From an uncultured Clostridia bacterium (lineage in GTDB: Bacteria; Bacillota; Clostridia; TANB77; CAG-508): a DNA stretch of 64,000 bases. A program made the translations under genes and the position numbers. The DNA is taken from contig CAKOYQ010000008.1 in the NCBI GenBank assembly GCA_934130935.1, positions 1,865 to 65,864 on the forward strand, in the 5' to 3' direction. The notes under the pieces were generated by a model. It worked only from the letters and a program-made list of their open reading frames with translations. It was not told the DNA's origin and did no database searches. Shown piece by piece: positions 1 to 35,617 of this stretch (position 1 is the first letter of the stretch; every line of letters starts with the position of its first letter).

Positions 1-3000
1 ATCATTTTCATTATTAACAGTTGCTTTTACTCTTATATAATTACCGTCTGAAGCCGATGATTTTATTACAAACTCTACTCCTGGTAATACTTTATTTATA
101 GCTGTTTCATCTTTCTTTATTATATGTATTTCTCCTACCTGAGAAATATTTATAACCTTTTGTATTTTTTCTATATCATTAATTGGCAAATCATCTTGTA
201 TTTGTACAAATGCATAACTACTATTTTCTCCCTCTTGTAAATAATAATTAATAGTTCGTCCATTAATTTGTTTTAATAAGTTATTAATCTTAATTTCTCC
301 TGTTGTATTTGTTATAAATACTGTAGCATCATCTTCAGTAGTATATGTGTATGTTGGATTATTTATAATATCATCTGTATCATCTATTCTTACTGTTCCA
401 GTAACTTGTCTTATCCAACCACCTTCTCCTTTTTCGATTTGTTCTCCTTCAACTGCATTTCCTTTTATTTTTACATATTTCTTTCCGCTTCCATCATCTG
501 CTTTCAATTTAAATTTTATACCTTCAAGTCTTTCTTCTTCTTGATCTTCATCTTCATCTACTTCTACTATTCCTCCTGTTCCTTCTGAGGCTTTACCTAC
601 TTTTATAATATGCAAATCTCCAACCTGTTTTTCATTTTTTATAACTTCATTAGTTGGTTCAGATGGTGACATTCCATCTACAACACTTGTTATCATTTTA
701 GTAAAACCATAATTATTATTTGCTGTTTCATAAATAGTATATTCTCCACATTGTAGGTTTCTTATTGCTATCTTTCCACTGCTATCTGTTGTAATTGTAC
801 TTGGGCTTGAATTAAATTCAACTTTATATCCTGCCTCTCCATTTATTGTTGCATTTCCATTGTCATCTAGTACAATTTCATTTCCAACAATTTGTCCTAC
901 TCTTGAGCCATTTTTTGATATACTTATATACTTATTGTCAGCATTTTTTATATTAAAATCTACATTCTTTTGTACAACACTTTCATTATCATAATCAACT
1001 TTTGTTATTATTAAATCTCCTTTTACATCATAGCTAACCGGTATAGTTATTGTTTTTGAAATAGTTGTATCTTTGCTTTCTTTACCAAATTTACTCTCTG
1101 TACGTTTCATATCTTGTGTTACACTATTAGCTTTTTTAGGACAATAATCTGGGCTTAATTTTTTTGTATCATATATATATGTAATATTATTTTTATATGT
1201 TCTATATTTATAGTCTTTAATTGTTTGTCTTCCTGTAATTTTTATGTATTCAACACCTGTAACATCATTACTTATTTTTATATAAAACTCTTTATCTCCT
1301 TTTAAGTCTCCTATTGTTAGAGTTTTTCCCTTACTGTCTACAGTAGTTGCTGTGTGTTCTTTTCCTCCATATTTAATTTTAATTGTAGATTCCGTAGTAC
1401 TAACATTACAATTTATCTTAAATGGTCCTATTATATTATTTTTATCATCTAATACAGATGTACCAGTTTCACCTGTATTATTTTTTAATTTGATTGTAGT
1501 CACACCTGACTTAGTTTTCCAACTACTAGTATAGGTCTTCGATTTTTTTGTTTTTATAAGTGTTGCCGCATGCCATTGATTACAAAATCTATTACCTTTT
1601 TGGTTACAATGATATATTTTGCCATCACTTCCCTTAGCATACTTTATCTTTCCATTTACAAGAACACCTCTTATTTTTATATGTTTATCAGCTCCATAAA
1701 CTTGTTGCATATTTCCTACTAAGCATATTGCAAAAACAATTACAAATAAAGCTCGTTTTAATATTTTTCTATCTTTCCAGATTAATATTGCTAATATTAC
1801 TAATACTGCAATAGTAAATATTGTAATACCTAACCATCTCATTAAACCTGTTGCTACACCAATAATTACTTGTGCATTTGAAGAATTATTTTCTGCATTG
1901 CCATCTTCTATAGCTTTATCATTATTACTCATTCCTATTGATGCTATATTAGTAATTGTACCTACATTATTACTATTAATATCTTTAGTTAACACTAAAC
2001 TTATTTCTTTACTATCTCCAACACCTATTGTTTGTTGTGATAAGCTGTTTGAGTACAAATTACCATTACTTTCATACCAGTTTTTATTCAATTCTGATTT
2101 GAATTTTAAACCATCTGGCAATTTATCTACTATTTGAACTGCTTTTCCATCTATTTCTCCATTGTTTGTAATAACAATTTTGTATTCTATTATTACTGTT
2201 GCTCCATTAATTTTTTTAGAATGTATTTCTGCTTTTGCAAATTGTTTATTATCATATGTATATGTTTTTATTTTTCCATCATTTGTTTGTACTGTAATTT
2301 TACTTATATATTTTTTTAATCCTAAGTCAAAATCTCTTTTTTCTATTAATCCAATATCTACATTCTTTAAATCTGATTCTGCTGTTAGTGAATTTGTTAA
2401 TCCAGCTGTTACTGTATTACCATCTATTCCTATAGTTTTGGTAATTGCATCAGAATTTTTAGATTCGATTACTCCCTCTTTTTGATATTCTGTTAATGTA
2501 TATGCATTTGTATCATATAAAAATACTACAATATATTGTCCTTTACTTATATTAGTAAATTCATATTCTCCATTTGAATTTGTTTGAACCTTTTTATTTT
2601 CATTGTTTTCTTTAACAAAGGTACTATTTTTATAATCATATAACATAACTGTCATATTGCTATATGTTTTTTCATTTGTTGTCCTTTTTCCATCTTCATT
2701 TTCATCTATCCAAGCTATACCTGATATTGATATTTTTGACTTTGATGGATTTTCTGGGTTATCTGGATTGTTTGGATTATCTGGGCTATCTGGGCTATCT
2801 GGGTTATCTGGGTTATTTGGGTTGTCTGGATTATCTGGATTATCTGGATTGTCTGGATTGTCTGGATTGTCTGGATTATCTGGTTCTCCTGAGTCTCCAT
2901 TCTTTAAAATCGTAGTTGTTACACTAGCTGCTTTATCTTTTATGTAATCACCTGTAACAGCCATAGTATTAGTAATTTTTGTTTTTTCATCAAGTGCCTT

Positions 3001-6000
3001 TACTTTTGCTTTTATTGTCATCGTTATTGTTTTTCCTTCAGGAATTAACCAATCTTGATTTACATTAGGAGCATCTTCTTCATCATATCCTTCTGGGATT
3101 TCCAGTACTGACAAATCTTCTGTCACTTCTTGCTCTGTAAAAACTTGTACTGTATGTTCTAACTCTGGAAATTCTTCGTCTTGAACCGTCTTTTCTTCTA
3201 AATCAAATTCATTATATGTAATACTAATTGGCTCTAACTCTCTTGGTATAATATCTTGTGCATTTACTTTTGTGTATGTAGAAAATTCTCCAAATGTTTT
3301 TCCCGTATTTTTTATATTTACTGTATATGTTATTTCTTCATCTGCTTTTAAAGTTTCTTTATCTGATGTCATACTAACATCAACAGCTTCTATATATCCA
3401 GTCATTCTTGTCTCATTTGATAAATATGTAGAATTATTAACAGAAATTGATGAAATTCCATTCATTTCATATTCTCCATTTTCTGGTTCTCCTATATCTC
3501 CCATCTTTCCTGTTATAATAAATTCATAAAATCCATCTTCTATTTCACCATCTTCGTTTGTTTTTATAGCATTTAATTTGTCCATTGTATAAGACCAAAC
3601 ATTTCCTTCTGCTGTTCCAAGTTCAATACTTCCTGTTTCATCTTCTTTTCCTTCTTCTACTTCCTCACTTATTTCTTCTTCATTTATTTCCTCTTCGCCT
3701 GTTGTTCCTTCATCTATTTCTTCAGCCATTCCCTGAACATCTCTTATCTCAAATCCAGGAGTTGTCTCAAATGCTACTTTTATATTTTTCAATTCTTTGT
3801 CTGTTAAGTTTGTAACTAAAAGTCTATATATCCATGATCTTCTTGTATTGATTCCTAGTAAACATTGTAATTCTACGCTAACCTCTGCTTGTTTTATTGT
3901 ATTTTGTACATTAAATTGAGTTGCAACACCTCCATTAATTTGTAAATCATAATTTATATTTGTTTGTTTTTCTTGTACATCATTATTTAAATCATTTACT
4001 TTTAATTCTATAAAATCTGTTTTTGTTTCTCCTGCATTTACATCTAATTCGATTTTAACTTGTTTGTTTTCTTGAGGTTTATATTCATATACATCACTAT
4101 ATTCATAATATCCCTTTTCTTGGTTTTTAATTGACCCTCCTGTTTCTAATTTAACATATGTCATTTCATCTGGAACATTAATAGTTAAATTAACTTTTTT
4201 AGATGTTGTATTATTATTTGTAACTTTTACATTATGTTTTATAATCTGTTCTTCATATACAGTTCCATCATCAGGAATTTTATTAGTTCCTACTTCTTCT
4301 ATTATTTCAACTTTCACTCCATCTTTTTCAAAAACTGATGTGCTCGTATTTTGTCCATTATCCTCTGAATTTTGTTGGTTTGTAGTAGTATATATTTGAG
4401 GAGCAATATTTATAACCTTATTTAAAAGTGCAATATCTGTTTCTTTACTTTCTGTTGTAGATGTCATTTCATTTGAATATGTATATTTTATAATTCCAAC
4501 TTTATTTTCTAATTGTTTTGTTACATTAATTGTTGCAGGTATTCTTATATTTGTTCCCTCAACTACAGAAGCCTGTCCATAAGCTGTTTGTCTTCCTTGT
4601 AGTTGTATATTAATAACTTTATTTCCATTACTATTTGTGCTAACTTTTGAGTCTACAATATTAAACACTTGATTATCATACATAATCTCAGGAGTACCTA
4701 TATTAATGTTTTCTACTTCTGCTGGCATTTCTATAGATATACTAGGATTTTTAAATAAGCTATATTGTGGTCCATCTGTTCTTAATGCTGCTGTAATTAT
4801 TACATCATTTTGTGTATTATTAACTAATGTATCCTTATCTAATTTTACATCCATATTAGAAACTGCTTGTCTAATCTCAGTATTAATTTTGCCATTGCGT
4901 TCATATTTTACTAAATCTGATGTCTCTGTTTCTTTTTCTCCATTACTTTTTTCAACTTCTGTTGTTATTGTATTTATTCCTTTTATAAAAACTTGTGTTG
5001 GAATTGTTTTTTCTGTTATTTGAGCACTCGCTTCTATAACTCTTGAATTTTGTAATTCAATAATCCCTTCTTTAGCTAAATCTTTTAATTGTATTATTAT
5101 ATTTTGTACTCTATTTTTATATGTAATCTTTATTTTTCCGTTTTCATCTGTTTCTGCATCTTTATTTATTGTTTTTAAAACCTTTCCATTCTCATCAAGT
5201 ACATCTATACTTCCTTTATCCCCAAGCATATCTAACATTTGATTTTTGTCTACACTCGTTTCTTTATATAATGATATCTCAGAATTTTCCTTTACTTCTA
5301 TTTTTTGTGCTATATCCTTATTACTTACCATTATTCTTAATGTCTCATTATATGCTGTATCATAATTATTTCCAGTATTTAAAGTATTTGCTGTTATATA
5401 TCCATCATATACTTTATCTGTTTTATGTTCTATTGATACAACTCCACTAATATTATCTGTACAAGTGTATTCCTCTTCTACCTTGTTTGATATTGTTGTT
5501 TTTTGCTCATCATTAAGCATTTCATATGTAATTAATTGTACTTTTAGGGCATTTTCTTGATTATTAGTATAACACTCACTATTATAAATACAAATTATTT
5601 CATACTCATCTCTTGAATCTGCAACTTTTTCGGTATATCCATTGTTTTCTGCTGTTATTGAAAGAGTTCCTGTACTTGCATGGTATTCATAACTTGCCTC
5701 TTTTCCCCCATTTGTAGCTTGTGTTGATTTTGTTAAAACTTCAACTCTTTCTGGCTTATAATTACCTATCCATGGTAAATCAATGTTTGTGGTAGTTTTT
5801 TGTATAGGTACATATTCCTCGCCTTCTGCAAATTCAATCCCTGTTTTTAGATTAAATTGAACAAGAACTCCCTTACTTCCAGTATCACTGCTCTCTGTAG
5901 TAGTATCAAAGTTCTCATATTTAGTTAAATTAATTTCTGCTAATGCTTTTACTTTTTCTTCTAAATTTGTTTGAATAGCATCAACTGCTTCTGATATCAA

Positions 6001-6066
6001 AATCATAATTGAACTATTTAGTAAAAAAATCATTAGCATAAAAATGCAACACAATTTTCTCTTCAT
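1..6066 (-). CDS. Giant surface adhesin (DUF11 / CnaB-SdrD-B-like repeats; DNP linker), >=2021 aa, 3' end outside window
   Basis: Hand reverse-complement gives RBS GGAGGAG, then ATG (complement of 6064-6066) and signal peptide MKRKLCCIFMLMIFLL. The ORF track lists no complete minus-strand ORF here, consistent with one open frame running past position 1. Composition and domains resemble the two downstream adhesins. Confidence 0.6.
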   Translation of the reverse strand, partial: MKRKLCCIFMLMIFLLNSSIMILISEAVDAIQTNLEEKVKALAEINLTKYENFDTTTESSDTGSKGVLVQFNLKTGIEFAEGEEYVPIQKTTTNIDLPWIGNYKPERVEVLTKSTQATNGGKEASYEYHASTGTLSITAENNGYTEKVADSRDEYEIICIYNSECYTNNQENALKVQLITYEMLNDEQKTTISNKVEEEYTCTDNISGVVSIEHKTDKVYDGYITANTLNTGNNYDTAYNETLRIMVSNKDIAQKIEVKENSEISLYKETSVDKNQMLDMLGDKGSIDVLDENGKVLKTINKDAETDENGKIKITYKNRVQNIIIQLKDLAKEGIIELQNSRVIEASAQITEKTIPTQVFIKGINTITTEVEKSNGEKETETSDLVKYERNGKINTEIRQAVSNMDVKLDKDTLVNNTQNDVIITAALRTDGPQYSLFKNPSISIEMPAEVENINIGTPEIMYDNQVFNIVDSKVSTNSNGNKVINIQLQGRQTAYGQASVVEGTNIRIPATINVTKQLENKVGIIKYTYSNEMTSTTESKETDIALLNKVINIAPQIYTTTNQQNSEDNGQNTSTSVFEKDGVKVEIIEEVGTNKIPDDGTVYEEQIIKHNVKVTNNNTTSKKVNLTINVPDEMTYVKLETGGSIKNQEKGYYEYSDVYEYKPQENKQVKIELDVNAGETKTDFIELKVNDLNNDVQEKQTNINYDLQINGGVATQFNVQNTIKQAEVSVELQCLLGINTRRSWIYRLLVTNLTDKELKNIKVAFETTPGFEIRDVQGMAEEIDEGTTGEEEINEEEISEEVEEGKEDETGSIELGTAEGNVWSYTMDKLNAIKTNEDGEIEDGFYEFIITGKMGDIGEPENGEYEMNGISSISVNNSTYLSNETRMTGYIEAVDVSMTSDKETLKADEEITYTVNIKNTGKTFGEFSTYTKVNAQDIIPRELEPISITYNEFDLEEKTVQDEEFPELEHTVQVFTEQEVTEDLSVLEIPEGYDEEDAPNVNQDWLIPEGKTITMTIKAKVKALDEKTKITNTMAVTGDYIKDKAASVTTTILKNGDSGEPDNPDNPDNPDNPDNPDNPDNPNNPDNPDSPDSPDNPNNPDNPENPSKSKISISGIAWIDENEDGKRTTNEKTYSNMTVMLYDYKNSTFVKENNENKKVQTNSNGEYEFTNISKGQYIVVFLYDTNAYTLTEYQKEGVIESKNSDAITKTIGIDGNTVTAGLTNSLTAESDLKNVDIGLIEKRDFDLGLKKYISKITVQTNDGKIKTYTYDNKQFAKAEIHSKKINGATVIIEYKIVITNNGEIDGKAVQIVDKLPDGLKFKSELNKNWYESNGNLYSNSLSQQTIGVGDSKEISLVLTKDINSNNVGTITNIASIGMSNNDKAIEDGNAENNSSNAQVIIGVATGLMRWLGITIFTIAVLVILAILIWKDRKILKRALFVIVFAICLVGNMQQVYGADKHIKIRGVLVNGKIKYAKGSDGKIYHCNQKGNRFCNQWHAATLIKTKKSKTYTSSWKTKSGVTTIKLKNNTGETGTSVLDDKNNIIGPFKINCNVSTTESTIKIKYGGKEHTATTVDSKGKTLTIGDLKGDKEFYIKISNDVTGVEYIKITGRQTIKDYKYRTYKNNITYIYDTKKLSPDYCPKKANSVTQDMKRTESKFGKESKDTTISKTITIPVSYDVKGDLIITKVDYDNESVVQKNVDFNIKNADNKYISISKNGSRVGQIVGNEIVLDDNGNATINGEAGYKVEFNSSPSTITTDSSGKIAIRNLQCGEYTIYETANNNYGFTKMITSVVDGMSPSEPTNEVIKNEKQVGDLHIIKVGKASEGTGGIVEVDEDEDQEEERLEGIKFKLKADDGSGKKYVKIKGNAVEGEQIEKGEGGWIRQVTGTVRIDDTDDIINNPTYTYTTEDDATVFITNTTGEIKINNLLKQINGRTINYYLQEGENSSYAFVQIQDDLPINDIEKIQKVINISQVGEIHIIKKDETAINKVLPGVEFVIKSSASDGNYIRVKATVNNEND
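2751..2894 (-). repeat. About 16 tandem copies of a 9-bp unit (ctggattat/ctggattgt) encoding a (D/N)NP linker inside the giant adhesin
   Basis: Direct tandem periodicity is visible. The out-of-frame track ORF 2715..2900 shows the same repeat as TIQ/IIQ. Confidence 0.8.
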
Positions 6067-6275
6067 CTTTCTTCTCCTCCATTTTTGCTATATAATATAA
6101 TATATAATTATATGATAAAATGTTTCGGAGTTTTAGTCAATAAGCTTACTCCTGCCAAGATTGTAGTTGCTTTTCATGTGCTTACGGATTTTCATTTTTC
6201 TGGAATTATTTCATTTTTATTACATTTTGTTATCTTTTTTGCTACAAATTATACCAAATTATGCCTTTTTTCTTA

Positions 6276-6467
6276 GGGCAATAGGGGAAAATGGGGACAT
6301 ATGGGGTCGGTTCCATTTTGGCACTGGGACATTTGGGGTCGGTTCCATTTTTGCCCTTTTTATAACATAGATATTTAATATTAATAATTATTGTATTTAA
6401 AAAGGGCAAAAATGGAACCGACCCCAAATGCCCCAGTGCCAAAACGGAACCGACCCCATATGTCCCC
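6276..6467. repeat. GC-rich 190-bp palindromic element: two 64-bp inverted arms (6293-6356 and 6404-6467, 2 mismatches) around a 47-bp AT spacer
   Basis: Each arm holds two tandem units of about 31 bp, GGGACAT(A/T)TGGGGTCGGTTCCATTTT. Read directly from the sequence. Confidence 0.85.
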
Positions 6468-6475
6468 AAAATGTT

Positions 6476-7717
6476 CTACTCAAAAGTTATGTCTTCTCCC
6501 ATAGTTGCTTTAATCTTACCTAATTCTTTTTGTAACATTGTATATGTTTGCTGTCCGATTGACATATCTTGTCCACTCTCATAATTTGTAATTGCTTTTT
6601 TTATGTCCAAAACTTTATATCTTTGAGAAATACCTGTAGGCATTTTATACATATATATTGGCACATATTCCACTTTAGTTAAAACCGTTTTTTTATCTTT
6701 TTCATTCTTTAAAATATCGATGTTCAATATGACTGAACTCCTTGTGTTCTCTTTGGTTTGTCCTGACATAAAATTTCCCAAAGAGTATATTACAAAACAG
6801 TTTTTTACAGTTCCATCTTCTAGTTTTATAGTCCTCCTCTCCATAGGTTGTAATACATGCGGATGACTTCCCAATATAATATCTACTCCATTATTAAATA
6901 GAAAATCCGCTAATTTCTCTTGTTCAGAATTTTGTTTATTTTGATATTCTATTCCCCAATGCATGCTAACACATATTAGATCTGGCTCTTCTTGTTTTGC
7001 TAATTTTATTTGTTTTAATATTAACTCTTCATCTATTAAATTAACTGCAAAGCTCTTATCTTTAGGGACTGGTATTCCATTTGTTCCGTAGGTAAATGAT
7101 AAAAATGCTATTTTAATACCATTTGAATTTTTTACCAGAATTTTATTTTGTTGTTCTTCTGTCTCATTTGTTCCTGTATGTGCAATTTCCGCTTCATCCA
7201 GATATTTTAGTGTACTTACAAGTCCTGCATAATTTGTATCCATACAATGATTGTTTGCAGTTGATAACACATCAATTCCGCAATCCTTTAGATTTTTTGC
7301 AAGTTGCTCTGGTGTATTAAATCTTGGATAATTACTATATCCTTTTTCCTTGCCAGCAAATGTAGTTTCTAAATTACCTATTGATATATCTGCTGAATTT
7401 ATGTATTGTTTTATATCTGAAAATACATATGAAAAATCATATGTTCCAGTAGTTGAATTATATGCATCTTTATATTGTGAATTATGGCACATTATATCTC
7501 CTATAACAGTCATTTTAATATATGTGTTTTTGGGCTCCTGTTCCATATTTTCTTCATCAGATTTTGGTTCATTAATTTCTTGTTCAATCTGTATTTCTCC
7601 TATATCTTTATCTTTTTTTCTAAAAAGATTTTTATATATGGAGATGCTTGTAAAGGTTAATATAGCTATTATTAAAAATATAACAATTATTTTTTTATCT
7701 TTCATTTTTTCTCTCAT
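6476..7717 (-). CDS. CapA/PgsA-family metallophosphatase (poly-gamma-glutamate/capsule biosynthesis-like), N-terminal TM
   Basis: N-terminal TM helix. Motifs VIGDIMCH, STANNHCMD and ICVSMHWG match the CapA metallophosphoesterase family. Confidence 0.65.
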   Translation of the reverse strand: MREKMKDKKIIVIFLIIAILTFTSISIYKNLFRKKDKDIGEIQIEQEINEPKSDEENMEQEPKNTYIKMTVIGDIMCHNSQYKDAYNSTTGTYDFSYVFSDIKQYINSADISIGNLETTFAGKEKGYSNYPRFNTPEQLAKNLKDCGIDVLSTANNHCMDTNYAGLVSTLKYLDEAEIAHTGTNETEEQQNKILVKNSNGIKIAFLSFTYGTNGIPVPKDKSFAVNLIDEELILKQIKLAKQEEPDLICVSMHWGIEYQNKQNSEQEKLADFLFNNGVDIILGSHPHVLQPMERRTIKLEDGTVKNCFVIYSLGNFMSGQTKENTRSSVILNIDILKNEKDKKTVLTKVEYVPIYMYKMPTGISQRYKVLDIKKAITNYESGQDMSIGQQTYTMLQKELGKIKATMGEDITFE

Positions 7718-7828: not shown

Positions 7829-10800
7829 TTATTTTTTCATAGTTTTTTTCTTTATTAAAACTATTCCACCTGCTATAACTATTAATCCTACTACTGCAGA
7901 TATTATATATATTGCTGTATAAGTCTTTATACCTGTTGGTGGTGTTACTATTATTCTAACTCTATCATCATCTTGTTGATGCTCACTTCCTAAAGCTGGT
8001 ATATAATTACCTGGTTGATATTCTTTATCCTCTTGTGCTCTTGTATTATCTTCTACTTTCTTTATTGTCCTAGCTATTTTGCTATTAATTCCTATTATTT
8101 CAACATGATTATCATATATAGAATTATCTTCCTGATTTGCTAATGTTGTGCTTGCATATATTGTACTTGTTTTTGTCTCGCCTGGTCCTAAATCCGCAAA
8201 TGTATTTGTTTCAATAGTTTGCAATTCTCTGTTCTTTATAGTCTCATATGTCATATCTCCATCTGTGTCATTCTCTTTATATGATATATATCCATTATCT
8301 TTTAGGTAATCAGCATTTATTATTTGTGTTTCATTATCTTCTTGTTTTTGTCTGAACCAATCTCCATTATTTACACCTTCAGGATCTCCTTCATAGTCAC
8401 TTCCAACTTTACAATTAAGTCTTGAATTCATATAATCAACTACTGTCTCTGCTGATCTTGTTATTATATTTAAACCATTCTTATCTCCATAATAATAGTA
8501 ATTTGCTTGTGAGTCTGTTGTTATAAAATTCAATTTTTGGTTTTCTTCTTTTTTACTGTTAATAATATCAGTATAATCTTTTTCATAATCATAATCTTTT
8601 TCACTGTCATTTGTAGCTGTTATTGAATACCAAACTTCTAATTTTGCCCCTTGTGTCAATTCTGAGTCTAATTCTATTGTTAGCATTTTATCTAATGTTG
8701 AAAATTCAGCTATCTCTCTACCATTTTCATCTGTATTTGTTTTAAATCCTATAGCTTTAACATAATTCATTTTGTCTTTTCTTGGATCTCCCTCTAATAG
8801 TATTTGTCCATTTGCTAATGTTAGTTTTATTTTAGAAATAGTTTTTTCTATTTTTAAATCTTCTCTTGCTCTTTCAATTATTCCAAAATCAAATACTCCC
8901 CAATCGCTTTGAAAGTCTCCACCATTTTCATCAACTTGTGCTTCTTGTGATTGTGTATATTCAACTTTTACATTAAATTCCTTACTATATGCTGACATAT
9001 TTATTCCATTATTATAGTTGTCATATTTTAATGTTCCAATTTCTAATCTTTCTTTTAAATCATCTGTTGCAACTGATGTATCTACATTTTCATTCATATA
9101 TAAATGCCACGTATTTGAATCTTTGCCTTGCATTACGCTCTTAACATTATCTTCTGTTATTATTGTAGATTTGTAATTTCTTGCATTTATAAATGTCTTT
9201 CCTCCATCTATTGTTGTTTTTCTGTCTTCATCTGCATTTCCATATGTATATTTTATAATGTAATCATCTACTACTACACCACAAGTTCCTGCTTCTCCAA
9301 ATGTATAATTACCATTTGAATCAGTATATGTTATAGCTGGTTTTTTATTTGCTCCTTTTTCAGCAGATGTATCTTTGTAATATAAATATGCTGTTTCTCC
9401 TGTATTAGGATCTATTAGTTCAACTTTAACATTTTCTACGCCTTTCTCATTTTCTTCTTTTTGTCCATTTCCTAATCTTTCTTTATCCTTTTGACTTTCT
9501 TGTGTTTGTGTATCTTCATATACAATTCCTGATAGTGTCTTATAATTAGGATCTTTCTTTAATAAGAATGATGGTGCTCTATCTGTATCATCTTCATATG
9601 TGTCTACATTTCCTGGAGTTGCATTTCCTGGTGTTGAGTCAATATCTAATCCTGCATATTGTTTACCAACTTTTCCTTTTACTTCTGCTGTTTCTCTCTC
9701 TGCACATATTGTATCTTTTCCATAATGTGTTGTATATGAGAATATTTCAGAAACATTAAATAATGTTGCATCGTCATTTAGTAGTCCTTTTATTCTATCT
9801 TGATTTACTTCAAATTCAATTTTTATTATTTCTGATTTTGATTCTGGTTGTAATTCAACTTTATTTGTATTGTATGCTATTTTATATCCATTATTATCTC
9901 CACTTGCTTCTTGCCATCCAGATGATGTTGCTGTTCCTTGTCCTGTATATATCGTATAATTACTGTCATAGTAATTTACTATACTATTTATAGTCATTGG
10001 CAATGTATTTGATTGATTTTTTAAGATTATATTATATGTTACATATACTCTTAAATCATCTGTGTTGTTGTAATTTACATATGCTATATCTGATGGATTT
10101 ACAGGTCTACTATATGTTTGAGTATATTTGTTTCCAAATTTAACTTTGTAATCAAATAATTCTTCGTTATCTTGTATTCCTCTATTTCCATATTTATATG
10201 TATATTCTTGGCCTTTCATTATAACTCTAACTTTTTCAATATCTGATGTTATTGCTGCATCTGGTTGTTCTCTTCTTACTAATCCTAAATTCATATTTTT
10301 TATGTTCCATACATAAATTCCATCTACACTCTTTCTACAATCTCTATTTATTGGCCCATCTTTTTCATCTGCTGAATAATAATGACATTCACTACCCTTA
10401 GAGGTATTAATTGCATCACCTATTATCTTCTTTATTGATGGTTTATTGTTTCCATCTGCCCAGTATCCACTTGGATCATTCATCTCAACTTGTTGATCAC
10501 AATATATCTTTAGATAAGAACTTCCATGTGTTTCTTGGTAAACTACATGATGTCCATCTTTTTCTTCGCAATGGTCTGCACAGAACTTTTTAGTTTCTAT
10601 CCATTTATTTTTTTCAGTATCTGTCAATATTTTTGTAGTAATACCTTGCGTTGAAGCTGATACTGCAAATTCTGATGCATAATTTGAGTCTGTAATTTTA
10701 GTATTTGGTAATTCTGATATTATTGCTTTATCTCCATCATAAACAGCTTTATTTTCAACTTTGTCAAACTTCTCATCTAATATTGTTCTTTTTTGTTCAT

Positions 10801-22806: not shown

Positions 22807-23685
22807 ATGGAGAGTAATTCAAATATAACTTCAAATATTATTGAAGCAGTTAACACTATCTTAGGAAATTTATTTTCTTCAATAGATAGCAATGTTTATA
22901 ATGTTCTTGATGACATTACTTTTATAAGTTCAGATATAATTAATGATTCTTATTTTGAAAAAATATTAGGAACTTCAGCATCCAATGGAATTTTATTAAT
23001 ATCAAATTCTCTACTTTTTGGTTTTTTATTATATTATTCTATAAAATACCTATTTGCACATTTTACATTTCAACAAATAGAAAAGCCTTCGCAATTTATT
23101 TTTAAATCTATTATTTTTGGTATTTGTATTAATTTTTCATATTTTTTTGTCGGAGAAGCCTTAAATTTTTTATCTAATATATCTCTTGCAATTAGAGGGA
23201 TTGGAGAAGATTTATTTCATAAAAACATTTGCTTTTCTGAACTGATTTTAGAAATAAACAATGATATTTCTATAACCTCCTCTTCTTTAGATATTTTTTC
23301 ATTAGATGGAATTATTAAAGCTTCACTTACAATGTCTTTATTAAATCTAGTTTTTACATATTCTTTTAGATATGTAATGATTAAAATTTTTATTTTACTT
23401 ACACCTTTTGCAATTTTGTCATTAATATTAGAACATACTTCATGGTTTTTTAAAGCTTGGGTTCGCAACTTATTTTCTTTATTATTTATACAGATTATTG
23501 TCTCTATTGTTTTATTAATATTATTTTCTATGGATTATTCTTCTAATAATTTAATGACTAAATTCATTTATATTGGAGCAATTTATGCTCTAATAAAATC
23601 AAATTCTTTTGTTCGTGATTTCATCGGTGGAGTTTCCACAACTTTTACTCAAAATGTGGAAAACTTATTTAAAAAATCACATTAA
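22807..23685 (+). CDS. Polytopic membrane protein, VirB6/TrbL/TrsL-like
   Basis: About 6 predicted TM helices across 292 aa. Sits inside a T4SS gene string. Confidence 0.45.
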   Translation: MESNSNITSNIIEAVNTILGNLFSSIDSNVYNVLDDITFISSDIINDSYFEKILGTSASNGILLISNSLLFGFLLYYSIKYLFAHFTFQQIEKPSQFIFKSIIFGICINFSYFFVGEALNFLSNISLAIRGIGEDLFHKNICFSELILEINNDISITSSSLDIFSLDGIIKASLTMSLLNLVFTYSFRYVMIKIFILLTPFAILSLILEHTSWFFKAWVRNLFSLLFIQIIVSIVLLILFSMDYSSNNLMTKFIYIGAIYALIKSNSFVRDFIGGVSTTFTQNVENLFKKSH

Positions 23686-23699
23686 TATAGTTTAATATT

Positions 23700-23881
23700 T
23701 TCCAAGACTAAAATATAATCCTTCCATTACATTCCTCGATTCATTTCGAGATTTAAGAAATTCTAATTTATTTTATGGCACCCTTCCACTCTCGTGAACT
23801 CTTTCCATAAAATTCATAAGAATTTCTAAAATCTCTCCAATCATATTCGTCATTCCATTTCAGGATTATATTTTAGTCTTG
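23700..23881. repeat. 22-bp perfect inverted repeat (TTCCAAGACTAAAATATAATCC / GGATTATATTTTAGTCTTGGAA) bracketing 138 bp; interior also partly palindromic
   Basis: Read directly from the intergenic sequence between the VirB6-like and TcpE-like genes. Confidence 0.85.
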
Positions 23882-23914
23882 GAATTATATTAAATCTATA
23901 GGAAAGGAGCTTTT

Positions 23915-24333: not shown

Positions 24334-25389
24334 ATGAAATTAGAACAACCAGAAATTCCACTGTTATTTTCTGAGACAGTTGTTTCAGATATATTTTTTG
24401 CTGAATATTTATCTCAGATGCCATCAAATAGTGTTAAAGTTTATTTATATATGATGTTTCTATCAAAATATAAAAAAGATATAAAATTAAATGATTTATC
24501 CAAAAAACTAGCACTTCCGCTAAAAGATATAAATGATGCTATTTTATATTTGGATACTAATGGATTAATTATAAAAAAAGAGGCTGGTTATATTGTTGTA
24601 AATCTACAAGAATTAACTCTTCATAAATTATATACACCAAATTTAACCGCATCTCCTGAAAAAGTTGCTAATATTGCCAAAAACAAAGCTCGTGCTAAAG
24701 TTATAACTCATATAAATAATGCATATTTTCAGGGAATTATGGGACCATCATGGTACAATGATATTGATTTATGGTTCACAAAATATAATTTTGATGATCA
24801 AGTTATGATTGCACTTTTTGATTATTGTTATAACCGTTCTGCACTTCATAAAAAGTATGTACAAACAGTTGCAGAAGCCTGGGGAAATAATAATATTCAA
24901 ACATGGAATGACTTAGATTTATACTATCAAAAACAGGAAAAATTGGTGAAAATAAAAAGGACAATTACTAAGAAACTTGGAAAAACTTCTCTTACTCAAT
25001 ATGAAGAAGCATATATTGAAAAATGGGTTATTGATTTTGGTTATGATTTAAATATTATTGAAATCGCTCTTAAAAGAACCACTTTTAAATCAAATCCTAC
25101 ATTTGAATATTTCAATAATATAATTACAGACTGGCATGATAGGAATTTAAAAACATCAAATGAAATTCTTGCATTTATAGAACAACGTAATAAACAAAAG
25201 AAAGATACTAAAAAACTAGAAAAACAAGTTGCAAAAGCGTCTTTTGATCAAAGACAATATGATAATCTGGCATTTTTATACGCAAATGCAGGAATATCTC
25301 CTGTAGAATTTCCAAATAATTCAAATGCGAATGAACCTCAAGCATCTGCATCAGTTTTTTCTAATATTAAAGGAGATTTAAATGGATAA
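24334..25389 (+). CDS. DnaD-domain replication initiation protein (DnaD/DnaB-like)
   Basis: N-terminal winged-helix-like region (VKVYLYMMFLS) and a DnaD-domain region (MIALFDYCYNRSALHKKYVQTVAEAWG). Confidence 0.6.
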   Translation: MKLEQPEIPLLFSETVVSDIFFAEYLSQMPSNSVKVYLYMMFLSKYKKDIKLNDLSKKLALPLKDINDAILYLDTNGLIIKKEAGYIVVNLQELTLHKLYTPNLTASPEKVANIAKNKARAKVITHINNAYFQGIMGPSWYNDIDLWFTKYNFDDQVMIALFDYCYNRSALHKKYVQTVAEAWGNNNIQTWNDLDLYYQKQEKLVKIKRTITKKLGKTSLTQYEEAYIEKWVIDFGYDLNIIEIALKRTTFKSNPTFEYFNNIITDWHDRNLKTSNEILAFIEQRNKQKKDTKKLEKQVAKASFDQRQYDNLAFLYANAGISPVEFPNNSNANEPQASASVFSNIKGDLNG

Positions 25390-26401
25390 TGAAATTTTAT
25401 CTAAATTAATAGCAGAATATGACCAAAAAAAACGTAGAGCAGAACTTGATTTACAAGAGCGTAAAGAAGAACTTTATAAAAAAATTCCTCGTCTGCAAGA
25501 AATTGAAATTGAATTAAATAATTTTGCTATTAATACTGCAAAAAACATTTTAAAAGGGTCTTCTTCCCTTTCTTTAGAGGCTTTAAATTCCAAAGTTGCA
25601 GATTTAAAAATTGAAAAAAATAGAATATTAAAAGAACATAATATACCAAGTACTTATTTAGAACCTTTCTACGAGTGCAACATTTGCAAAGATACTGGAT
25701 ATATTCAAACTGGTACTTCAGCATCTAGTTTATGTTCTTGTTTAAAACAGAAACTATTAGATATATCTTATAATAAATCAAATATTTCTAACCTTAGTAA
25801 AGAAAATTTTGCAACTTTTAATGAAAATATTTTTTCAGATAAAATAGAAACTGAAAAATTTGGAATTAATATTTCACCACGTCAAAATATTATAACAATA
25901 AAATCAAAATGCATAGATTTTGTTAAAAACTTTGATAATCCTGATACTCATAATTTATTATTTACAGGAAATACTGGACTTGGAAAAACTTTTATGAGTA
26001 ATTGTATAGCAAATGAATTAATAAAGAATGGAAAAAGCGTACTTTATCAAACAGCCCCTGTTTTATTAGAAACTGTTATTGACAAAAAATTTAATAAGTA
26101 TAAAAATTCTGTTCAAGATGATTTTTATAAAAATGTTTTAGAGTCAGATTTATTAATTATTGATGACCTAGGGACAGAATGTTTAAATAGCATGAAATTA
26201 AGTGAATTATTTACAATTTTAAATACTCGTTTGTTAAATTTTAATAATAAAGTAACAAAAACTATAATTTCTACTAATTTAAATATTAATAATATTTTTA
26301 AAAATTATGAAGAAAGAATTGGTTCTCGTATTGCTGGATTTTATGACATTTATTATTTTTTTGGTGATGATTTAAGACTTAAGCCAAAACATTTTAATTA
26401 G
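25382..26401 (+). CDS. DnaI/DnaC-like helicase-loader ATPase with N-terminal Zn-binding CxxC...CxC
   Basis: Zn-binding pattern CNICKDTGY...CSCLK. Walker A TGNTGLGKTF and Walker B LLIIDDLG. Overlaps the previous gene by 8 bp. Confidence 0.65.
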   Translation: MDNEILSKLIAEYDQKKRRAELDLQERKEELYKKIPRLQEIEIELNNFAINTAKNILKGSSSLSLEALNSKVADLKIEKNRILKEHNIPSTYLEPFYECNICKDTGYIQTGTSASSLCSCLKQKLLDISYNKSNISNLSKENFATFNENIFSDKIETEKFGINISPRQNIITIKSKCIDFVKNFDNPDTHNLLFTGNTGLGKTFMSNCIANELIKNGKSVLYQTAPVLLETVIDKKFNKYKNSVQDDFYKNVLESDLLIIDDLGTECLNSMKLSELFTILNTRLLNFNNKVTKTIISTNLNINNIFKNYEERIGSRIAGFYDIYYFFGDDLRLKPKHFN

Positions 26402-26523: not shown

Positions 26524-28977
26524 TTATTTACTTTCTTCTGACTGAGCAATTTCTGGAGTTAATGTTTCCATACTTACAACTTTTCCACCATCTGTCGTTC
26601 TCATCAAAGTTACACCTTGTGTTGAGCGTCCTAACACACTTATATCTTTTACTTTAAGTCTTATTATTGTTCCTTTATCAGTTATAAGCATTACATCTTC
26701 ATCATCTGTTGCTATTCTTGCTCCAACTAATTTACCTGTTTTTTGAGTTACCTTATATGTTATAACACCTTTTCCTCCTCGAATTTGTACTCTGTATTCA
26801 TCAAGTTCTGTTCTTTTTCCAAATCCGTTTTCTGTAATTGCAAGTAATGTTGCTTTTCCACCTGCAATAATTGATTCCATTCCTATAACTTCATCATCTT
26901 CATCAATCCTAATTCCTATAACACCTTGTGAAACTCTACCGATTGGACGGACATCTTTTTCGTCAAATGTAATACACATTCCATTTCTTGTAACAAGAAT
27001 TACATTATCTTCTCCATCAGTCAATCTAACTGCAATTAACTCATCATCTTCTTTTAATGTTATTCCTTGCAATCCTGTCTTACGTGCTGAATTATATTCA
27101 GCCAAAGCTGTTTTCTTTATTAATCCATTTTTTGTTGACATTAATAAGTATTTACCTTCTGCAAAATTTTGAATTGGTATAACTGCTGATACTTTTTCTC
27201 CTGCGTCTAAACTTAATAAGTTTACAATCGCTGTTCCCCTAGCAGTTCTACCTGCTTCTGGTACTTCATATCCTCTTAGTTTATACAATTTTCCTTTATT
27301 AGTAAAGAATAAAATAGTGTCATGTGTAGAGGCTGTAAATATTTGTTTTACAAAGTCTTCCTCTCTTGTAGCAATTCCTGTTATTCCTTTTCCTCCACGT
27401 TTTTGACTTCTATATGTATCTATTGGCATTCTTTTAATATATCCAAAATGTGTTAAAGCTATAACTGTCTGTTCTTCTTTTATCAAATCTTCAACATCGA
27501 TTTCTCCCTCTGCTGCTACAATCTTTGTTTTTCTATCATCTCCAAACTTATTTTTAATTTCAATAAGTTCTTCTTTTATAATATCAAATACTAATTTTTC
27601 ACTATTTAAAATTGCTCTTAAATGTTCAATTAATTCCATTAATTGTTTATATTCTTCTTCAATCTTTTCTCTTTGCAATCCTGATAGTGTTTTTAGTCTC
27701 ATGTCCAAAATTGCTTGTGCTTGTATATCTGTTAATCCAAATCTTTCCATCAATCTTTCTTTTGCATCATCATAAGAGTTACGGATAATTGCAATTACCT
27801 CATCTATATTATCAATAGCAATTCTTAAACCTTCTAATATATGAGCTCTTGCTAATGCTTTATCCAAATCAAATTGAGTTCTACGCAAAATAACAGTTTT
27901 TCTATGATCAATATAACAATCTAAACATTGTCTTAATGTTAATATTTTTGGCTCTCCATCTACTAAAGCCAACATTATTACTCCAAATGTATCTTGCATT
28001 TGTGTATTTTTATATAATTGATTTAATACTACTTGAGGATTAGCATCTCTTTTAAGTTCCATTACAATTCTAACTCTTTCTTTTCTATCTGATTCATCAC
28101 GTAATTCAGAGATTCCTTCTATCCTCTTCTCTCTAGTTAATCTTGCAATATTTTCAATTAGACGAGCTTTATTTACTTGATATGGTAATGATGAAACTAT
28201 TATCCTTTGCTTATTTCCACTCATTTCCTCTATCTCTGCTTCTGCTCTCATTATAATTTTGCCTCTTCCAGTTCGATATGCCTCTTTAATTCCCTCTAAA
28301 CCAAGAATCATTCCTCCTGTTGGAAAATCAGGTCCTTTTATTATTTGCATTAAATCTTCATCTGTTACATTATCATCATCAATAATTTTTATTATTCCAT
28401 CCACAATTTCTGTTAAATTATGTGGTGGTATATTTGTTGCCATTCCTACAGCTATTCCTGATGAACCATTAACTAATAATGCTGGTATCTTTGAAGGTAA
28501 AACTGTTGGTTCTTGCAATCTATCATCATAGTTTGGCATAAAGTCAACTGTATTCTTTTCTATATCTACTAACATTTGCTCAGCTATTTTTGACATTCTT
28601 GCTTCTGTATACCTCATCGCAGCAGCACCATCACCATCTATTGAACCAAAATTACCATGTCCATCTACTAGCATATATCTCATTGAAAAGTCTTGTGCCA
28701 TTCTTACCATCGCATCATATACTGATGCATCTCCATGTGGATGATATCTTCCTAATACAGAACCTACTGTATTTGCACATTTCCTATATGGCTTGTCTGA
28801 GGTAATTCCATCTTCATGCATAGCATACAATATTCTTCTATGTACTGGTTTTAATCCATCTCTTACATCTGGTAATGCTCTTGATACAATAACACTCATT
28901 GCATAATCGATGTAAGCTGTTTTCATCTCTTGTTCAATATCTCTTTGAATTATATTTCCATCTTGTCTTTCATCCAT
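26524..28977 (-). CDS. gyrA: DNA gyrase subunit A
   Basis: 817 aa. N-terminal [24 protein letters not shown] and the [11 protein letters not shown] region are canonical GyrA. Confidence 0.97.
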
Positions 28978-29074
28978 AGTTTTCTACCTCTTTCTTTTTT
29001 CTTATACTTTTGTATTATATTATACTAATCCTTATTTTGCAAGGGTTTTGGGTAATTATTTTCTCATTTTTTAC

Positions 29075-29290
29075 TTATTTTTTTAAGCTTTTTATTATAA
29101 ATCTAACTCCATCCTTAAAGCCTTGTTTATAATATAATTCACTTATTATATTCATTTTTATATTATTCCTTTCTTCTTCGCTATTAACCTTTATTTGTTT
29201 TATTTTATAGTGATATTCTCTCTGTATATTTTCTTCTATATCCTCATATCTTTCTTCAAAAATTCTATTTAACATTTCATCATCAAACAT
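29075..29290 (-). CDS. Hypothetical 71-aa acidic protein
   Basis: Listed in the ORF track only; divergent from the XRE regulator gene. Confidence 0.3.
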   Translation of the reverse strand: MFDDEMLNRIFEERYEDIEENIQREYHYKIKQIKVNSEEERNNIKMNIISELYYKQGFKDGVRFIIKSLKK

Positions 29291-29464
29291 ATTTTTCTCC
29301 TATATTTTATATTCTATTTTTTATCTTTTACATATAATTTATTTTTATTCCCACTAATTCTTATTATCCTCTATAATTACTGTGTATGTGAAAAATATGC
29401 TATTTGCTTATTATATGTTGACAATTTTCGCTATATAATGTAGAAAAATCTTTGAGGTGAGCAT

Positions 29465-29815: not shown

Positions 29816-29854
29816 GAACTTATACTAAATACATGCACCTTTTTTGCATGTATT

Positions 29855-30556: not shown

Positions 30557-30575
30557 ATATTTTTCCTTTCCTTTT

Positions 30576-32399: not shown

Positions 32400-32418
32400 A
32401 TTTTTCCTTTCTACCTTT

Positions 32419-33133: not shown

Positions 33134-33164
33134 AGGGCAAAAACGGAACCGACCCCAAATGTCC
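33134..33164. repeat. Lone copy of the GGGCAAAAA(C/T)GGAACCGACCCCAAATG(T/C)CCC unit also found four times in the 6276-6467 palindrome
   Basis: Direct match with 2 mismatches to 6404-6434. Confidence 0.8.
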
Positions 33165-33625
33165 CTCAAAAAAATTTTAAATTTTTTGTATAGAAAAAAT
33201 TTTTCTGCACATAATATGTGTATAAGGTTAACATCAGTTGAGTGAAGAGTATTGATGGATTATTTATTAGTTTGTTAATATTCGAGCAAAGATGTATATT
33301 GGTTCATTTTTATGGATTAATATATGTCGGCGATAAAAATATATTATATGTATGTAAGCTGTATTTTATTTAAATTTTCAAGGATTATTTTTATATTTTA
33401 TATATGGTTAAATTATATGTAATATATTTGAACTAAGATTATTCTTGTATTATATGGGATTGTTATTAGTCCCTCGAGGATGAATATGGTTTCTACTAGT
33501 GCATTTGTAGTCGAGCAACTGATTAATATATGTGGTGTATGGTTTATTTGTATAGCAATATGCATTAGATCAAACCACTATATATATTAGTCTGAGTTAA
33601 GATTGGTTTTGGCTTTATAGATAAT

Positions 33626-33670: not shown

Positions 33671-33685
33671 AAATTATATATTATT

Positions 33686-35617
<1,932 letters not shown>

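What the first reader, a model, noticed from the sequence alone, without database searches (positions are those of the whole stretch)
6276..6467. GC-rich 190-bp perfect palindrome built from four GGGACATxTGGGGTCGGTTCCATTTT units, with a fifth unit 27 kb away
Two 64-bp arms are exact reverse complements apart from 2 mismatches. Each arm contains two tandem units of about 31 bp. The element sits between the capA-like gene and the giant adhesin gene. A single unit recurs at 33134-33164, exactly at the edge of the insert that splits gyrA and gyrB. The GC-rich units stand out in AT-rich DNA. Candidates are recombinase or transposase binding sites (a REP/BIME-, PATE- or MITE-like family), att-like sites, or a large RNA hairpin acting as terminator or RNA-stability element. 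The multi-unit inverted architecture is not a CRISPR array.
Basis: seen in the sequence. Interest (0 to 1): 0.6.

Follow-up and report, generated by a model that had tools for sequence, protein, structure and literature searches.

The report
Dispersed GC-rich intergenic repeat, palindromic copy
The palindrome is one copy of a previously undescribed short GC-rich repeat that is scattered between genes in a group of uncultured, AT-rich human-gut Clostridia; here it sits where a transcription terminator would be, so it is a new example of a familiar kind of bacterial "junk-or-regulatory" repeat, not a new kind of system.

Summary
Window 6292-6468 is a 177-bp palindrome with two 71-nt arms (69/71 complementary). 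Each arm holds two tandem 32-nt units, GGGRCATWTGGGGTCGGTTCCRTTTTKGCMCT, and the centre is 35 nt of AT-rich DNA. A fifth unit lies at 33134-33165 (-).

It is not a local oddity. I found 304 units in about 1 Mb of human-gut contigs with 26-35% GC. Most are solos or direct doublets with a 33-nt period. They usually sit 0-11 nt after a stop codon, and 39 of 50 scorable cases are antisense to the flanking genes. Convergent palindromes are the minority form, and many of them enclose a conserved ~218-nt AT-rich hairpin module. The window's centre matches the two outer ends of that module.

Unit number differs between near-identical strains. The 33134 site holds a doublet in most conspecific contigs and is empty in a sister species that still carries the gyrB-gyrA insert. 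So the unit does not mark an island edge.

At the orthologous PGA_cap-adhesin site, one relative has only a short hairpin plus a T-run, and another has a palindrome built from a different unit.

Best reading: a BIME/BOX/STAR-like mosaic repeat that, when transcribed, forms a long 3'-UTR hairpin. What mobilises it is unknown.

The parts
6292..6362 (+). Left arm of the palindrome. It holds two tandem 32-nt units, 6294-6325 (rare GGCACT variant) and 6326-6357 (identical to the consensus), plus a T-run.
6363..6397 (.). AT-rich, non-palindromic centre (9% GC). With the adjacent T/A runs (6358-6402) it matches the two outer ends of the ~218-nt AT-rich hairpin module that fills the centre of related copies such as L128 441-727. 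This copy has therefore lost that module's interior, or never had it.
   Evidence: direct comparison with L128
6398..6468 (-). Right arm, the mirror image of the left arm. Units are at 6403-6434 and 6435-6466, and the outer unit again carries the rare GGCACT variant. The arms are therefore copies of each other, not four independent insertions.
33134..33165 (-). Solo unit in the gyrB-to-TraC-like intergenic region. Most conspecific contigs have a doublet here, and the sister species has nothing.
6476..7717 (-). PGA_cap (capA-like) gene. Its TAG stop codon lies 7 nt upstream, in the mRNA sense, of the palindrome.
6112..6140 (-). Promoter-like site TTGACT-17-TATCAT for the adhesin gene, downstream of the palindrome. 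It is conserved at the orthologous place in L154, a relative without units.
1..6066 (-). 5' part of the giant surface protein gene (DUF11, SdrD_B, SpaA-like domains). It runs off the left end of the window, and its start ATG lies 225 nt after the palindrome.
23687..23899 (+). Stand-alone copy, without GC units, of the AT-rich hairpin module that sits between the GC-unit arms in many related copies.

Best explanation
The element is one locus of a lineage-specific, high-copy intergenic repeat family.

Shown:
- The family's building block is a 32-33-nt GC-rich unit.
- The unit occurs alone, in direct tandem arrays whose length changes between strains, or as convergent inverted arrays around an AT-rich hairpin module.
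- The window copy is a 2+2 convergent array with mirrored arms and a centre that matches only the outer ends of that module.
- At the gyrB site the unit is an insertion relative to a sister species.

Inferred, origin: the window copy arose by inverted duplication of a doublet, or by arrival of a composite palindromic element, followed by loss of the module's interior.

Inferred, function: the family is a selfish or nearly neutral repeat that selection confines to the few tolerated positions, between a stop codon and the next ribosome-binding site. The minus strand is the mRNA strand here. On it the locus is transcribed as the 3' end of the PGA_cap message and folds into an uninterrupted 71-bp stem. 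That stem would act as a terminator, or as a barrier to 3'-exonucleases and a substrate for double-strand RNases. It would insulate the upstream operon from the giant adhesin gene, which has its own promoter. I could not identify what copies the units to new sites.
For: Family and dispersal:
- I counted 304 units in 176 clusters. Of these, 79 are solos, 73 are direct doublets (commonest period 33 nt), 9 are triplets, about 16 are convergent and 2 are divergent.
- There are 92 distinct flank contexts.
- Many contigs end inside units.

Dynamics:
- Unit number differs between contigs whose flanks are 99-100% identical.
- One conspecific contig, L136, has only a direct doublet at the palindrome site, with a deletion junction at a CCATTTT microhomology.

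Insertion: the sister-species site is empty, with conserved flanks.

Mirrored arms:
- Both outer units carry the GGCACT variant, which about 6% of units have.
- Composite copies elsewhere show mirrored mismatch patterns.

Centre: it equals the outer ends of the L128-type module.

Position and orientation:
- 39 clusters are antisense and 11 sense to co-directional flanking genes (p = 9e-5).
- Antisense clusters sit a median 21 nt before the next start codon, sense clusters a median 136 nt.

RNA role:
- The fold is -146.8 kcal/mol, z = -19.
- Both arm mismatches are G.U on the mRNA strand.
- The orthologous site in L154-156 holds a short GC hairpin followed by T7.
- The downstream promoter-like site is conserved.
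- L157-159 carry a different-unit palindrome at the same place.
Against: - I have no expression data, so the terminator/stabiliser role rests on position and folding alone.
- The terminator scan finds nothing at 5900-6700. Only AUUUU follows the stem.
- No target-site duplication and no parent element or enzyme were found, so mobility by transposition is not demonstrated. Spread by recombination, or selection for a host function, cannot be excluded.
- The near-invariance of about 28 of the 32 positions across 204 distinct copies is unusual for neutral junk and could mean a sequence-specific protein partner. Part of it is ascertainment, because the loci were collected with an 18-base exact pattern.
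- The orientation bias could reflect the replication strand instead of transcription. I could not separate the two.
Confidence: 0.75

Rival explanations
1. A REPIN/RAYT-type system. The units or their inverted pairs would be non-autonomous elements copied as single-stranded hairpins by a single-copy HUH/Y1 transposase encoded elsewhere in the genome. Different species would carry different unit families matched to their own enzyme.
For: - The GGGCAA subtype has a 6-9-bp terminal stem (GGGCAA/TTGCCC), -15.2 kcal/mol, z = -3.1.
- The strand bias is strong.
- Species differ in unit family: L150-152 have no units, and L157-159 have a different unit starting with GGGACA.
- An IS200-family gene exists in a related contig.
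Against: - Half of the units, including all five in the window, are the GGGACA subtype, which has no significant hairpin (z = -1.1).
- The conserved part is the loop, not the stem.
- Direct tandem arrays far outnumber inverted pairs.
- There is no GTAG-like 5' tetranucleotide.
- The IS200-like gene is a canonical IS200 (61% identity to a Salmonella TnpA sequence that I recalled from memory) and is not flanked by units.
Confidence: 0.12
2. A protein-binding array with a host function. Candidates are an operator or architectural site controlling the adhesin gene, an origin-proximal segregation or organisation site, or a phase-variable inverton.
For: - The asymmetric 32-nt sequence is very highly conserved.
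- The 32-33-nt period is about three helical turns.
- The locus lies just upstream of a giant surface protein gene and about 34 kb from the GC-skew switch.
- A palindrome of repeated units recurs at the same site in a relative.
Against: - Hundreds of copies lie between unrelated housekeeping genes, and a few lie in frame inside genes.
- Copy number varies freely between strains.
- A sister species has none in the 22-kb origin region.
- All four full independent copies of the window locus show the same centre orientation, and the 35-nt centre is too short to carry a promoter.
- The adhesin promoter-like site lies outside the element and is conserved without it.
Confidence: 0.07
3. att-like recombination sites that mark the borders of integrated islands, as the first reader suggested for the gyrA/gyrB insert.
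For: A unit lies between gyrB and the first gene of a TraC/TraG-like cassette.
Against: - The cassette is present in every conspecific contig, whether the site has one or two units.
- The cassette is also present in the sister species, whose site is empty.
- There is no second unit at the gyrA side.
- Most units elsewhere sit inside operons.
Confidence: 0.02
4. DNA uptake or other strand-orienting signal sequences (DUS/USS- or Chi/KOPS-like).
For: The sequence is over-represented and conserved, shows a strand bias, and forms inverted pairs after genes.
Against: - The unit is 32 nt long.
- Units occur in abutting tandem arrays.
- They are almost exclusively intergenic.
- They are patchy between sister species.
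- No competence or recombination link was examined or is known to me for this lineage.
Confidence: 0.03

Closest known systems
STAR elements of Staphylococcus aureus (PMC3532100; Cramton et al. 2000, cited there)
   Same: [quoted passage not shown] In both, loci expand and contract between strains, locations differ between species, and function and mode of spread are unknown (PMC3532100, Background and Abstract; here).
   Different: STAR is a 14-bp motif, T(G/A/T)TGTTG(G/T)GGCCC(C/A), separated by at least 40 bp of recurring spacer. Here the unit is 32 nt, the units abut, there is no sequence resemblance, and inverted mosaic forms with a hairpin module exist.
REP / BIME elements and REPIN-RAYT systems of Proteobacteria (PMC3116915, PMC3337134; details from my own knowledge)
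   Same: Both are high-copy extragenic repeats placed after stop codons and inside operons, singly, in tandem or inverted, and combined with other motifs into mosaics. In both, transcribed copies give stable 3' hairpins.
   Different: REPs are themselves imperfect palindromes with a conserved stem, and the replicating unit is the inverted pair. Here the conserved part is an asymmetric core, half of the units lack a hairpin, direct arrays dominate, and no RAYT has been found.
BOX elements of Streptococcus pneumoniae (my own knowledge)
   Same: Both have a modular build, with a variable number of a short tandem subunit (boxB, 45 nt) between other modules. Both are intergenic in a low-GC Firmicute, fold into long hairpins, and have no known transposase.
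   Different: There is no sequence similarity. BOX modules have a fixed A-B(n)-C order, not mirrored arrays around a hairpin module.
MITEs such as Correia/NEMIS (Neisseria) and ERIC (my own knowledge)
   Same: The composite copies are 280-430 bp, have terminal inverted repeats, fold into long hairpins and lie next to genes.
   Different: I saw no target-site duplication and found no parent IS with matching ends. The most numerous forms are solo units and direct doublets, which are not MITE-shaped.
Rickettsia palindromic elements (RPE) (my own knowledge)
   Same: A few units are inserted in frame within protein-coding genes: the AsnB GATase domain, a U32 peptidase domain and the C-terminus of a UvrD-like helicase.
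   Different: These insertions are rare here. The units are about 33 nt, against about 100-150 nt for RPEs, and most are intergenic.

Membership tests
REP / REPIN-RAYT | Each repeat is a short imperfect palindrome (a stem-loop as single strand). | tested here: not met
   All five window units are the GGGACA/GGGGCA subtype, which folds at -10.5 kcal/mol, z = -1.1, no better than shuffles. Only the GGGCAA subtype has a 6-9-bp stem (z = -3.1).
REP / REPIN-RAYT | The predominant, replicating form is two repeats in inverted orientation with a short spacer. | tested here: not met
   There are 79 solos, 73 direct doublets and 9 triplets, against about 16 convergent and 2 divergent clusters.
REP / REPIN-RAYT | A cognate single-copy RAYT (Y1/HUH) gene is flanked by the repeats. 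| not testable with these tools
   No whole genome could be scanned. The one IS200-like gene found (L042 7350-7757) is canonical IS200 and has no adjacent units.
MITE | Terminal inverted repeats, small size and no coding capacity. | tested here: met
   The window copy is 177 bp with 71-nt inverted arms. Composite copies are 280-430 bp.
MITE | A target-site duplication flanks the element. | tested here: not met
   No direct repeat flanks the solos, doublets or composites. The empty/filled comparison at the gyrB site shows replacement of an A/T run without a clear duplication.
MITE | An autonomous parent IS has matching ends. | tested here: inconclusive
   None was seen in about 1 Mb of related loci, and the only transposase found has unrelated ends. 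Whole genomes were not searched.
STAR elements | A 14-bp consensus T(G/A/T)TGTTG(G/T)GGCCC(C/A) repeated with spacers of at least 40 bp. | tested here: not met
   The unit sequence and the 32-36-nt abutting period differ (definition from PMC3532100).
CRISPR array | Direct repeats are separated by unique spacers of similar length. | tested here: not met
   The units abut with a 32-33-nt start-to-start period for a 32-nt unit, and the arms are inverted.
Intrinsic (Rho-independent) terminator | A GC-rich hairpin is immediately followed by a U-tract at the 3' end of a transcription unit. | tested here: inconclusive
   An uninterrupted 71-bp stem begins 7 nt after the stop codon, but it is followed only by AUUUU and the scan calls nothing. 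The orthologous empty site has a hairpin plus T7. There are no transcript data.
Inverton (invertible promoter switch) | Inverted repeats flank a promoter-bearing segment that is found in both orientations, with a recombinase. | tested here: not met
   The centre is only 35 nt, it has the same orientation in the window and in L132-L134, and no recombinase gene is adjacent.
Known RNA families (Rfam 15) | A match at the gathering score. | tested here: not met
   Only tRNAs match in the window. For the composite copy L128 the only match is a sub-threshold hit to a plant miRNA hairpin, 56 bits against a gathering score of 230.

The most novel reading that the evidence does not exclude
The units are the substrate of an unrecognised, sequence-specific copying or array-extending activity in this gut Clostridia genus. 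Each species would have its own unit family matched to its own enzyme: the GGGACATTTGGGGTCGGTTCC... unit here and the GGGACACCCATAAGTGGTC... unit in a relative. The activity would recognise an asymmetric core instead of a REP-type hairpin and would insert next to stop codons or terminator hairpins. This would be a Firmicute counterpart of REPIN-RAYT with a different recognition logic. The co-occurring AT-rich hairpin module, which keeps its pairing through compensatory changes, would be part of the same system.
Probability: 0.15. Interest if true: 0.7.

Novelty: new member of a known kind. Interest (0 to 1): 0.4.

Why it matters
The family appears to be undescribed. No held paper contains its core motif except as unrelated primers, and it has no match in Rfam, plasmids or phages.

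It has three practical consequences:
- It breaks metagenome assemblies of an abundant but uncultured gut lineage, because many contigs end in it.
- It offers VNTR-like strain markers.
- It inserts strong hairpins into 3' UTRs and operon junctions, and occasionally 11-22 extra residues into enzymes.

If a dedicated enzyme moves it, that would extend REPIN-like "resident replicators" to Firmicutes. If not, it is one more example, like STAR and BOX, of a repeat whose mode of spread is unexplained.

Tried and rejected
- Rfam at gathering score on the window and at E-value threshold on a full composite copy: nothing real.
- Viral contig scan with the core: four chance hits, none with a full unit.
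- Plasmid and phage BLAST of the 191-nt element: no match.
- Literature search for the core motif on both strands: only unrelated primer strings.
- Two Runella hits from the genome scan: 27/32 identity, but no more than chance outside the 20 bases the pattern required, so I rejected them.
- tblastn with an IS200 TnpA sequence recalled from memory: one canonical IS200 in L042, with ends unrelated to the unit and no units adjacent.
- Search for orthologues of the window's genes among the unit-rich loci, to obtain more empty/filled pairs: none found.
- Search for target-site duplications around solos, doublets and composites: none.
- Island-border idea: rejected by the sister-species comparison.
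- Inverton idea: rejected on orientation and centre length.
- I could not separate transcription-linked from replication-linked strand bias on short contigs.
- One Python call was an aborted stub and printed nothing.

Full report
OBSERVATION

Window 6292-6362 and 6398-6468 are inverted arms of 71 nt, 97% complementary, separated by 35 nt. The only two mismatches, at 6315 and 6329, are A/G. Each arm is two head-to-tail 32-nt units: 6294-6325 and 6326-6357 on the + strand, 6403-6434 and 6435-6466 on the - strand. The consensus is GGGRCATWTGGGGTCGGTTCCRTTTTKGCMCT. A fifth unit lies at 33134-33165 (-).

The core GGGGTCGGTTCC occurs five times exactly, against 0.16 expected. The arms are about 50% GC and the centre 9%, in a 27% GC window. 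As RNA the region folds at -146.8 kcal/mol on the - strand (z = -19) and -139.2 on the + strand. Three independent assemblies, L132-L134, carry the identical sequence. Four others break in or next to it.

CONTEXT

The window spans the replication origin.
- The GC skew changes sign near 40 kb.
- dnaA is at 38674-40143, followed by dnaN, recF and gyrB (33686-35617).
- A TraC/TraG-like cassette follows gyrB, and then gyrA (26524-28977). All of these genes are on the - strand.
- The palindrome lies 7 nt after the TAG stop of a PGA_cap gene (6476-7717, -).
- It lies 225 nt before the ATG of a giant DUF11/SdrD_B surface protein gene.
- A promoter-like TTGACT-17-TATCAT sits at 6140-6112, between the palindrome and that gene.

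THE UNIT BELONGS TO A DISPERSED FAMILY

An exact 20-base pattern found the unit in two species-level gut MAGs, Clostridia bacterium HGM12814 and Clostridium sp. 28_12.

A search allowing up to 9 mismatches found 304 units in 1.04 Mb, grouped in 176 clusters:

| Arrangement | Clusters |
|---|---|
| Solo | 79 |
| Direct doublet (period mostly 33 nt) | 73 |
| Triplet | 9 |
| Convergent inverted (GCCCT ends facing) | about 16 |
| Divergent | 2 |

There are 92 different flank contexts.

Across 204 distinct copies, about 28 of the 32 positions are nearly invariant. There are two equal subtypes, GGGACA (89 copies) and GGGCAA (88), and one free position, 22. Part of this conservation is ascertainment, because the loci were collected with an exact pattern.

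The GGGCAA subtype has a terminal 6-9-bp stem followed by a T-run (-15.2 kcal/mol, z = -3.1). The GGGACA subtype, which includes all the window units, does not (z = -1.1).

The family has no match in viral contigs, plasmids or phages or Rfam. No held paper contains the motif other than as unrelated primers.

WHERE THE UNITS SIT

After removing duplicate loci:
- 39 single-orientation clusters are antisense to co-directional flanking genes and 11 are sense (binomial p = 9e-5). Six lie between convergent genes and one between divergent genes.
- The units typically begin 0-11 nt after the upstream stop codon.
- Antisense clusters end a median 21 nt before the next start codon, which leaves room for just the ribosome-binding site. 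Sense clusters leave a median 136 nt (the difference is suggestive, Mann-Whitney p = 0.06).

This is what selection against polar, terminator-like insertions inside operons would produce. A replication-strand bias could produce the same pattern, and I could not separate the two.

A few units are in frame inside genes:
- a doublet of 22 residues in the glutamine-amidotransferase domain of an asparagine synthase (L062);
- a solo unit within the U32 peptidase domain of an 815-aa protein (L129);
- a doublet forming the C-terminus of a UvrD-like helicase (L019 and its orthologues).

THE UNITS ARE DYNAMIC AND ARE INSERTIONS

Contigs with 99-100% identical flanks differ by exactly one unit: L019 has 3 and L114 has 2; L117 has 2 and L021/L124 have 1; L007 is 2+1 and L002/L060 are 1+1.

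At the window's own solo site, eight of ten conspecific contigs carry a doublet with a 35-nt period. Two contigs and the window carry one unit. The surrounding 700 nt differ by a single base.

A sister species (GyrB 96% identical; L150-L152, from a 1.66-Mb contig) has no unit there. It reads ...AAAAATTTTTTAAAAAAATT|TTTTGTCGAA..., where the window reads ...TTTTTTTGA[unit]TTTTGTCGAT.... That species still has the TraC/TraG-like cassette between gyrB and gyrA. The unit is therefore not the edge of an island, and the att-site idea fails.

THE PALINDROMIC FORM

Most of the convergent clusters (11 of about 16) enclose a conserved ~218-nt AT-rich module that is itself a long imperfect hairpin.

The window's 45 nt between its inner units (TTTTATAACATAGATA|TTTAATATTAATAATTATTGTATTTAAAA) equals the left and right outer ends of that module as seen in L128 441-727, joined at an ATA microhomology. 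The window copy is therefore an internally deleted derivative, or less likely a form the module never invaded.

A stand-alone copy of the module, without GC units, lies at window 23687-23899. Across 14 copies, 19 of 54 predicted pairs keep pairing through changes on both sides.

The window's arms are copies of each other. Both outer units carry the GGCACT variant, found in about 6% of units, and both inner units carry the consensus. Other composites show mirrored arms as well, and sometimes mirrored flanks beyond the units.

I infer that arms grow by inverted duplication, for example by template switching at the hairpin, or that composites move as a whole. Neither is shown.

One conspecific contig, L136, has only a direct doublet at this locus, with a deletion junction at CCATTTT. 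This fits the known instability of long palindromes.

THE SAME SITE IN RELATIVES

| Contigs | PGA_cap identity to window | What follows the PGA_cap stop |
|---|---|---|
| L153 | 91% | Degenerate 1+1 palindrome of the same unit, no centre |
| L154-156 | 76% | No units; a short GC hairpin, AGAGGGT-N11-ACCCTCT, followed by T7 |
| L157-159 | 72% | 2+2 palindrome of a different 35-nt unit, GGGACACCCATAAGTGGTCAAAATCTTTACCAGT, with or without a ~110-nt AT-rich centre |

In L157-159 the unit variants are again mirrored between the arms. In all of these contigs the right flank (CCCTAAGAAAAAAGGCATAATTTGG...) is conserved. The promoter-like TTGACT-17-TATCAT was checked and found conserved in L154.

The element therefore occupies the place of the operon's terminator. 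Either the site is a hot spot for such elements, or a strong hairpin there is favoured.

On the mRNA (-) strand both arm mismatches are G.U wobbles, which gives an uninterrupted 71-bp stem. This is weak support for the RNA reading, because it would happen by chance in about one case in four.

Against a classical terminator, only AUUUU follows the stem, and the scan reports none.

MECHANISM, WITH LEVELS OF SUPPORT

- Shown: the element is a member of a dispersed, strain-variable, lineage-restricted repeat family. The unit is an insertion relative to a sister species. The arms are mirror copies. The centre is related to the hairpin module. The element sits at the terminator position.
- Inferred: it is transcribed as the 3' UTR of the PGA_cap message and acts as a terminator, a 3'-end barrier or a target for double-strand RNases, insulating that operon from the adhesin gene.
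- Unknown: what spreads the units. I saw no target-site duplication and no parent IS. The single IS200-like gene found in a related contig is canonical and is not linked to units.

COMPARISON WITH KNOWN FAMILIES

The closest analogues are listed below.
- STAR elements of S. aureus: GC-rich intergenic direct repeats in an AT-rich Firmicute, loci that expand and contract, function and spread unknown (PMC3532100).
- REP/BIME and BOX mosaics.
- MITEs, for the composite forms.
- Rickettsia palindromic elements, for the in-frame insertions.

The family fails the defining tests for REP/REPIN (the unit is not a palindrome and inverted pairs are not the main form), STAR (different motif, no spacers), CRISPR and invertons. 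It meets the shape criteria of a MITE only in its composite form, and it lacks target duplications.

VERDICT

This is a real and apparently undescribed repeat family of a well-known general kind. It is interesting mainly for its non-palindromic conserved core, its mosaic build, its turnover at strain level, and the replacement of a terminator by different repeat palindromes in sister species.

Noticed in passing
window 23687-23899: A stand-alone AT-rich long hairpin repeat (-67 kcal/mol, z = -14) lies 2-6 nt after the stop of the 292-aa ORF 22807-23685. The same ~165-220-nt module lies between GC-unit arms in many related contigs. Across 14 copies, 19 of 54 stem pairs keep pairing through changes on both sides, while the internal loops and the apical 30 nt are conserved in sequence. 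It has no Rfam match. It could be a structured RNA or a single-strand DNA element.
   Followed up: partly
window 47295-47590: A second, unrelated long palindromic repeat has 83-nt arms that are 90% complementary (-172 kcal/mol, z = -25). It lies between gidB (46545-47267) and parA/soj (47715-48476). Copies at about 89-93% identity occur in L059, L076, L101 and L102. It has no Rfam match at the gathering score.
   Followed up: partly
window 29000-33690 (genes 32419-32994, 30576-32399, 29855-30625, all -): gyrB and gyrA are separated by a cassette. It encodes a TraC-like 191-aa protein, a 607-aa TraG/VirB4/HerA-like P-loop ATPase (weak PADLOC mad8 hit, 3e-17), a 233-256-aa protein, an HTH protein and a 71-aa protein. 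The cassette is conserved in all conspecific contigs and in a sister species, so it is an old, fixed feature of the genus and not a recent island.
   Followed up: partly
window 32995-33685: The 692-nt non-coding stretch after gyrB is almost invariant among ten conspecific contigs, with 1 SNP apart from the unit. The part aligned with a sister species (about 230 nt adjoining the unit site) is largely conserved. It contains a terminator-like hairpin, read on the gyrB (minus) strand, at 33622-33654. Nothing in Rfam matches it.
   Followed up: no
L157 3775-3925; L158 and L159 3775-4030; L059 61-94: A different 35-nt unit family, GGGACACCCATAAGTGGTCAAAATCTTTACCAGT, shares only the GGGACA start and a GGTC motif with the window's unit. 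It builds a 2+2 palindrome at the orthologous PGA_cap-adhesin site of a related species. L158 and L159 have the two unit variants swapped in both arms at once, which implies concerted change of the arms.
   Followed up: partly
L062 1224-1288; L129 3912-3943; L019 3797-3861: GC units are inserted in frame in coding sequence. They add 22 residues (GAKTEPTPNVPGAKMEPTPNVP) in the GATase domain of an asparagine synthase and 11 residues inside a U32 peptidase domain. They also form the C-terminal tail of a UvrD-like helicase.
   Followed up: partly
L136 3928-3991: A conspecific Logan contig has only a direct doublet where the window has the palindrome, joined to the right flank at a CCATTTT microhomology. 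It is either a real palindrome-deletion variant or an assembly collapse.
   Followed up: no
L042 7350-7757 (-): An IS200-family tnpA (61% identical to a Salmonella IS200 TnpA sequence recalled from memory) has a perfect upstream hairpin at about 7960-7990 and lies next to a GC-rich structured-looking region (7960-8150). It is not linked to the GC units.
   Followed up: partly
window 24334-26401: A DnaB_2/DnaD-like gene, followed by an IstB/DnaC-like helicase-loader gene in the orthologous contigs, lies next to gyrA on the strand opposite to the surrounding genes. This coincides with the local dip in GC skew at 20-26 kb.
   Followed up: no
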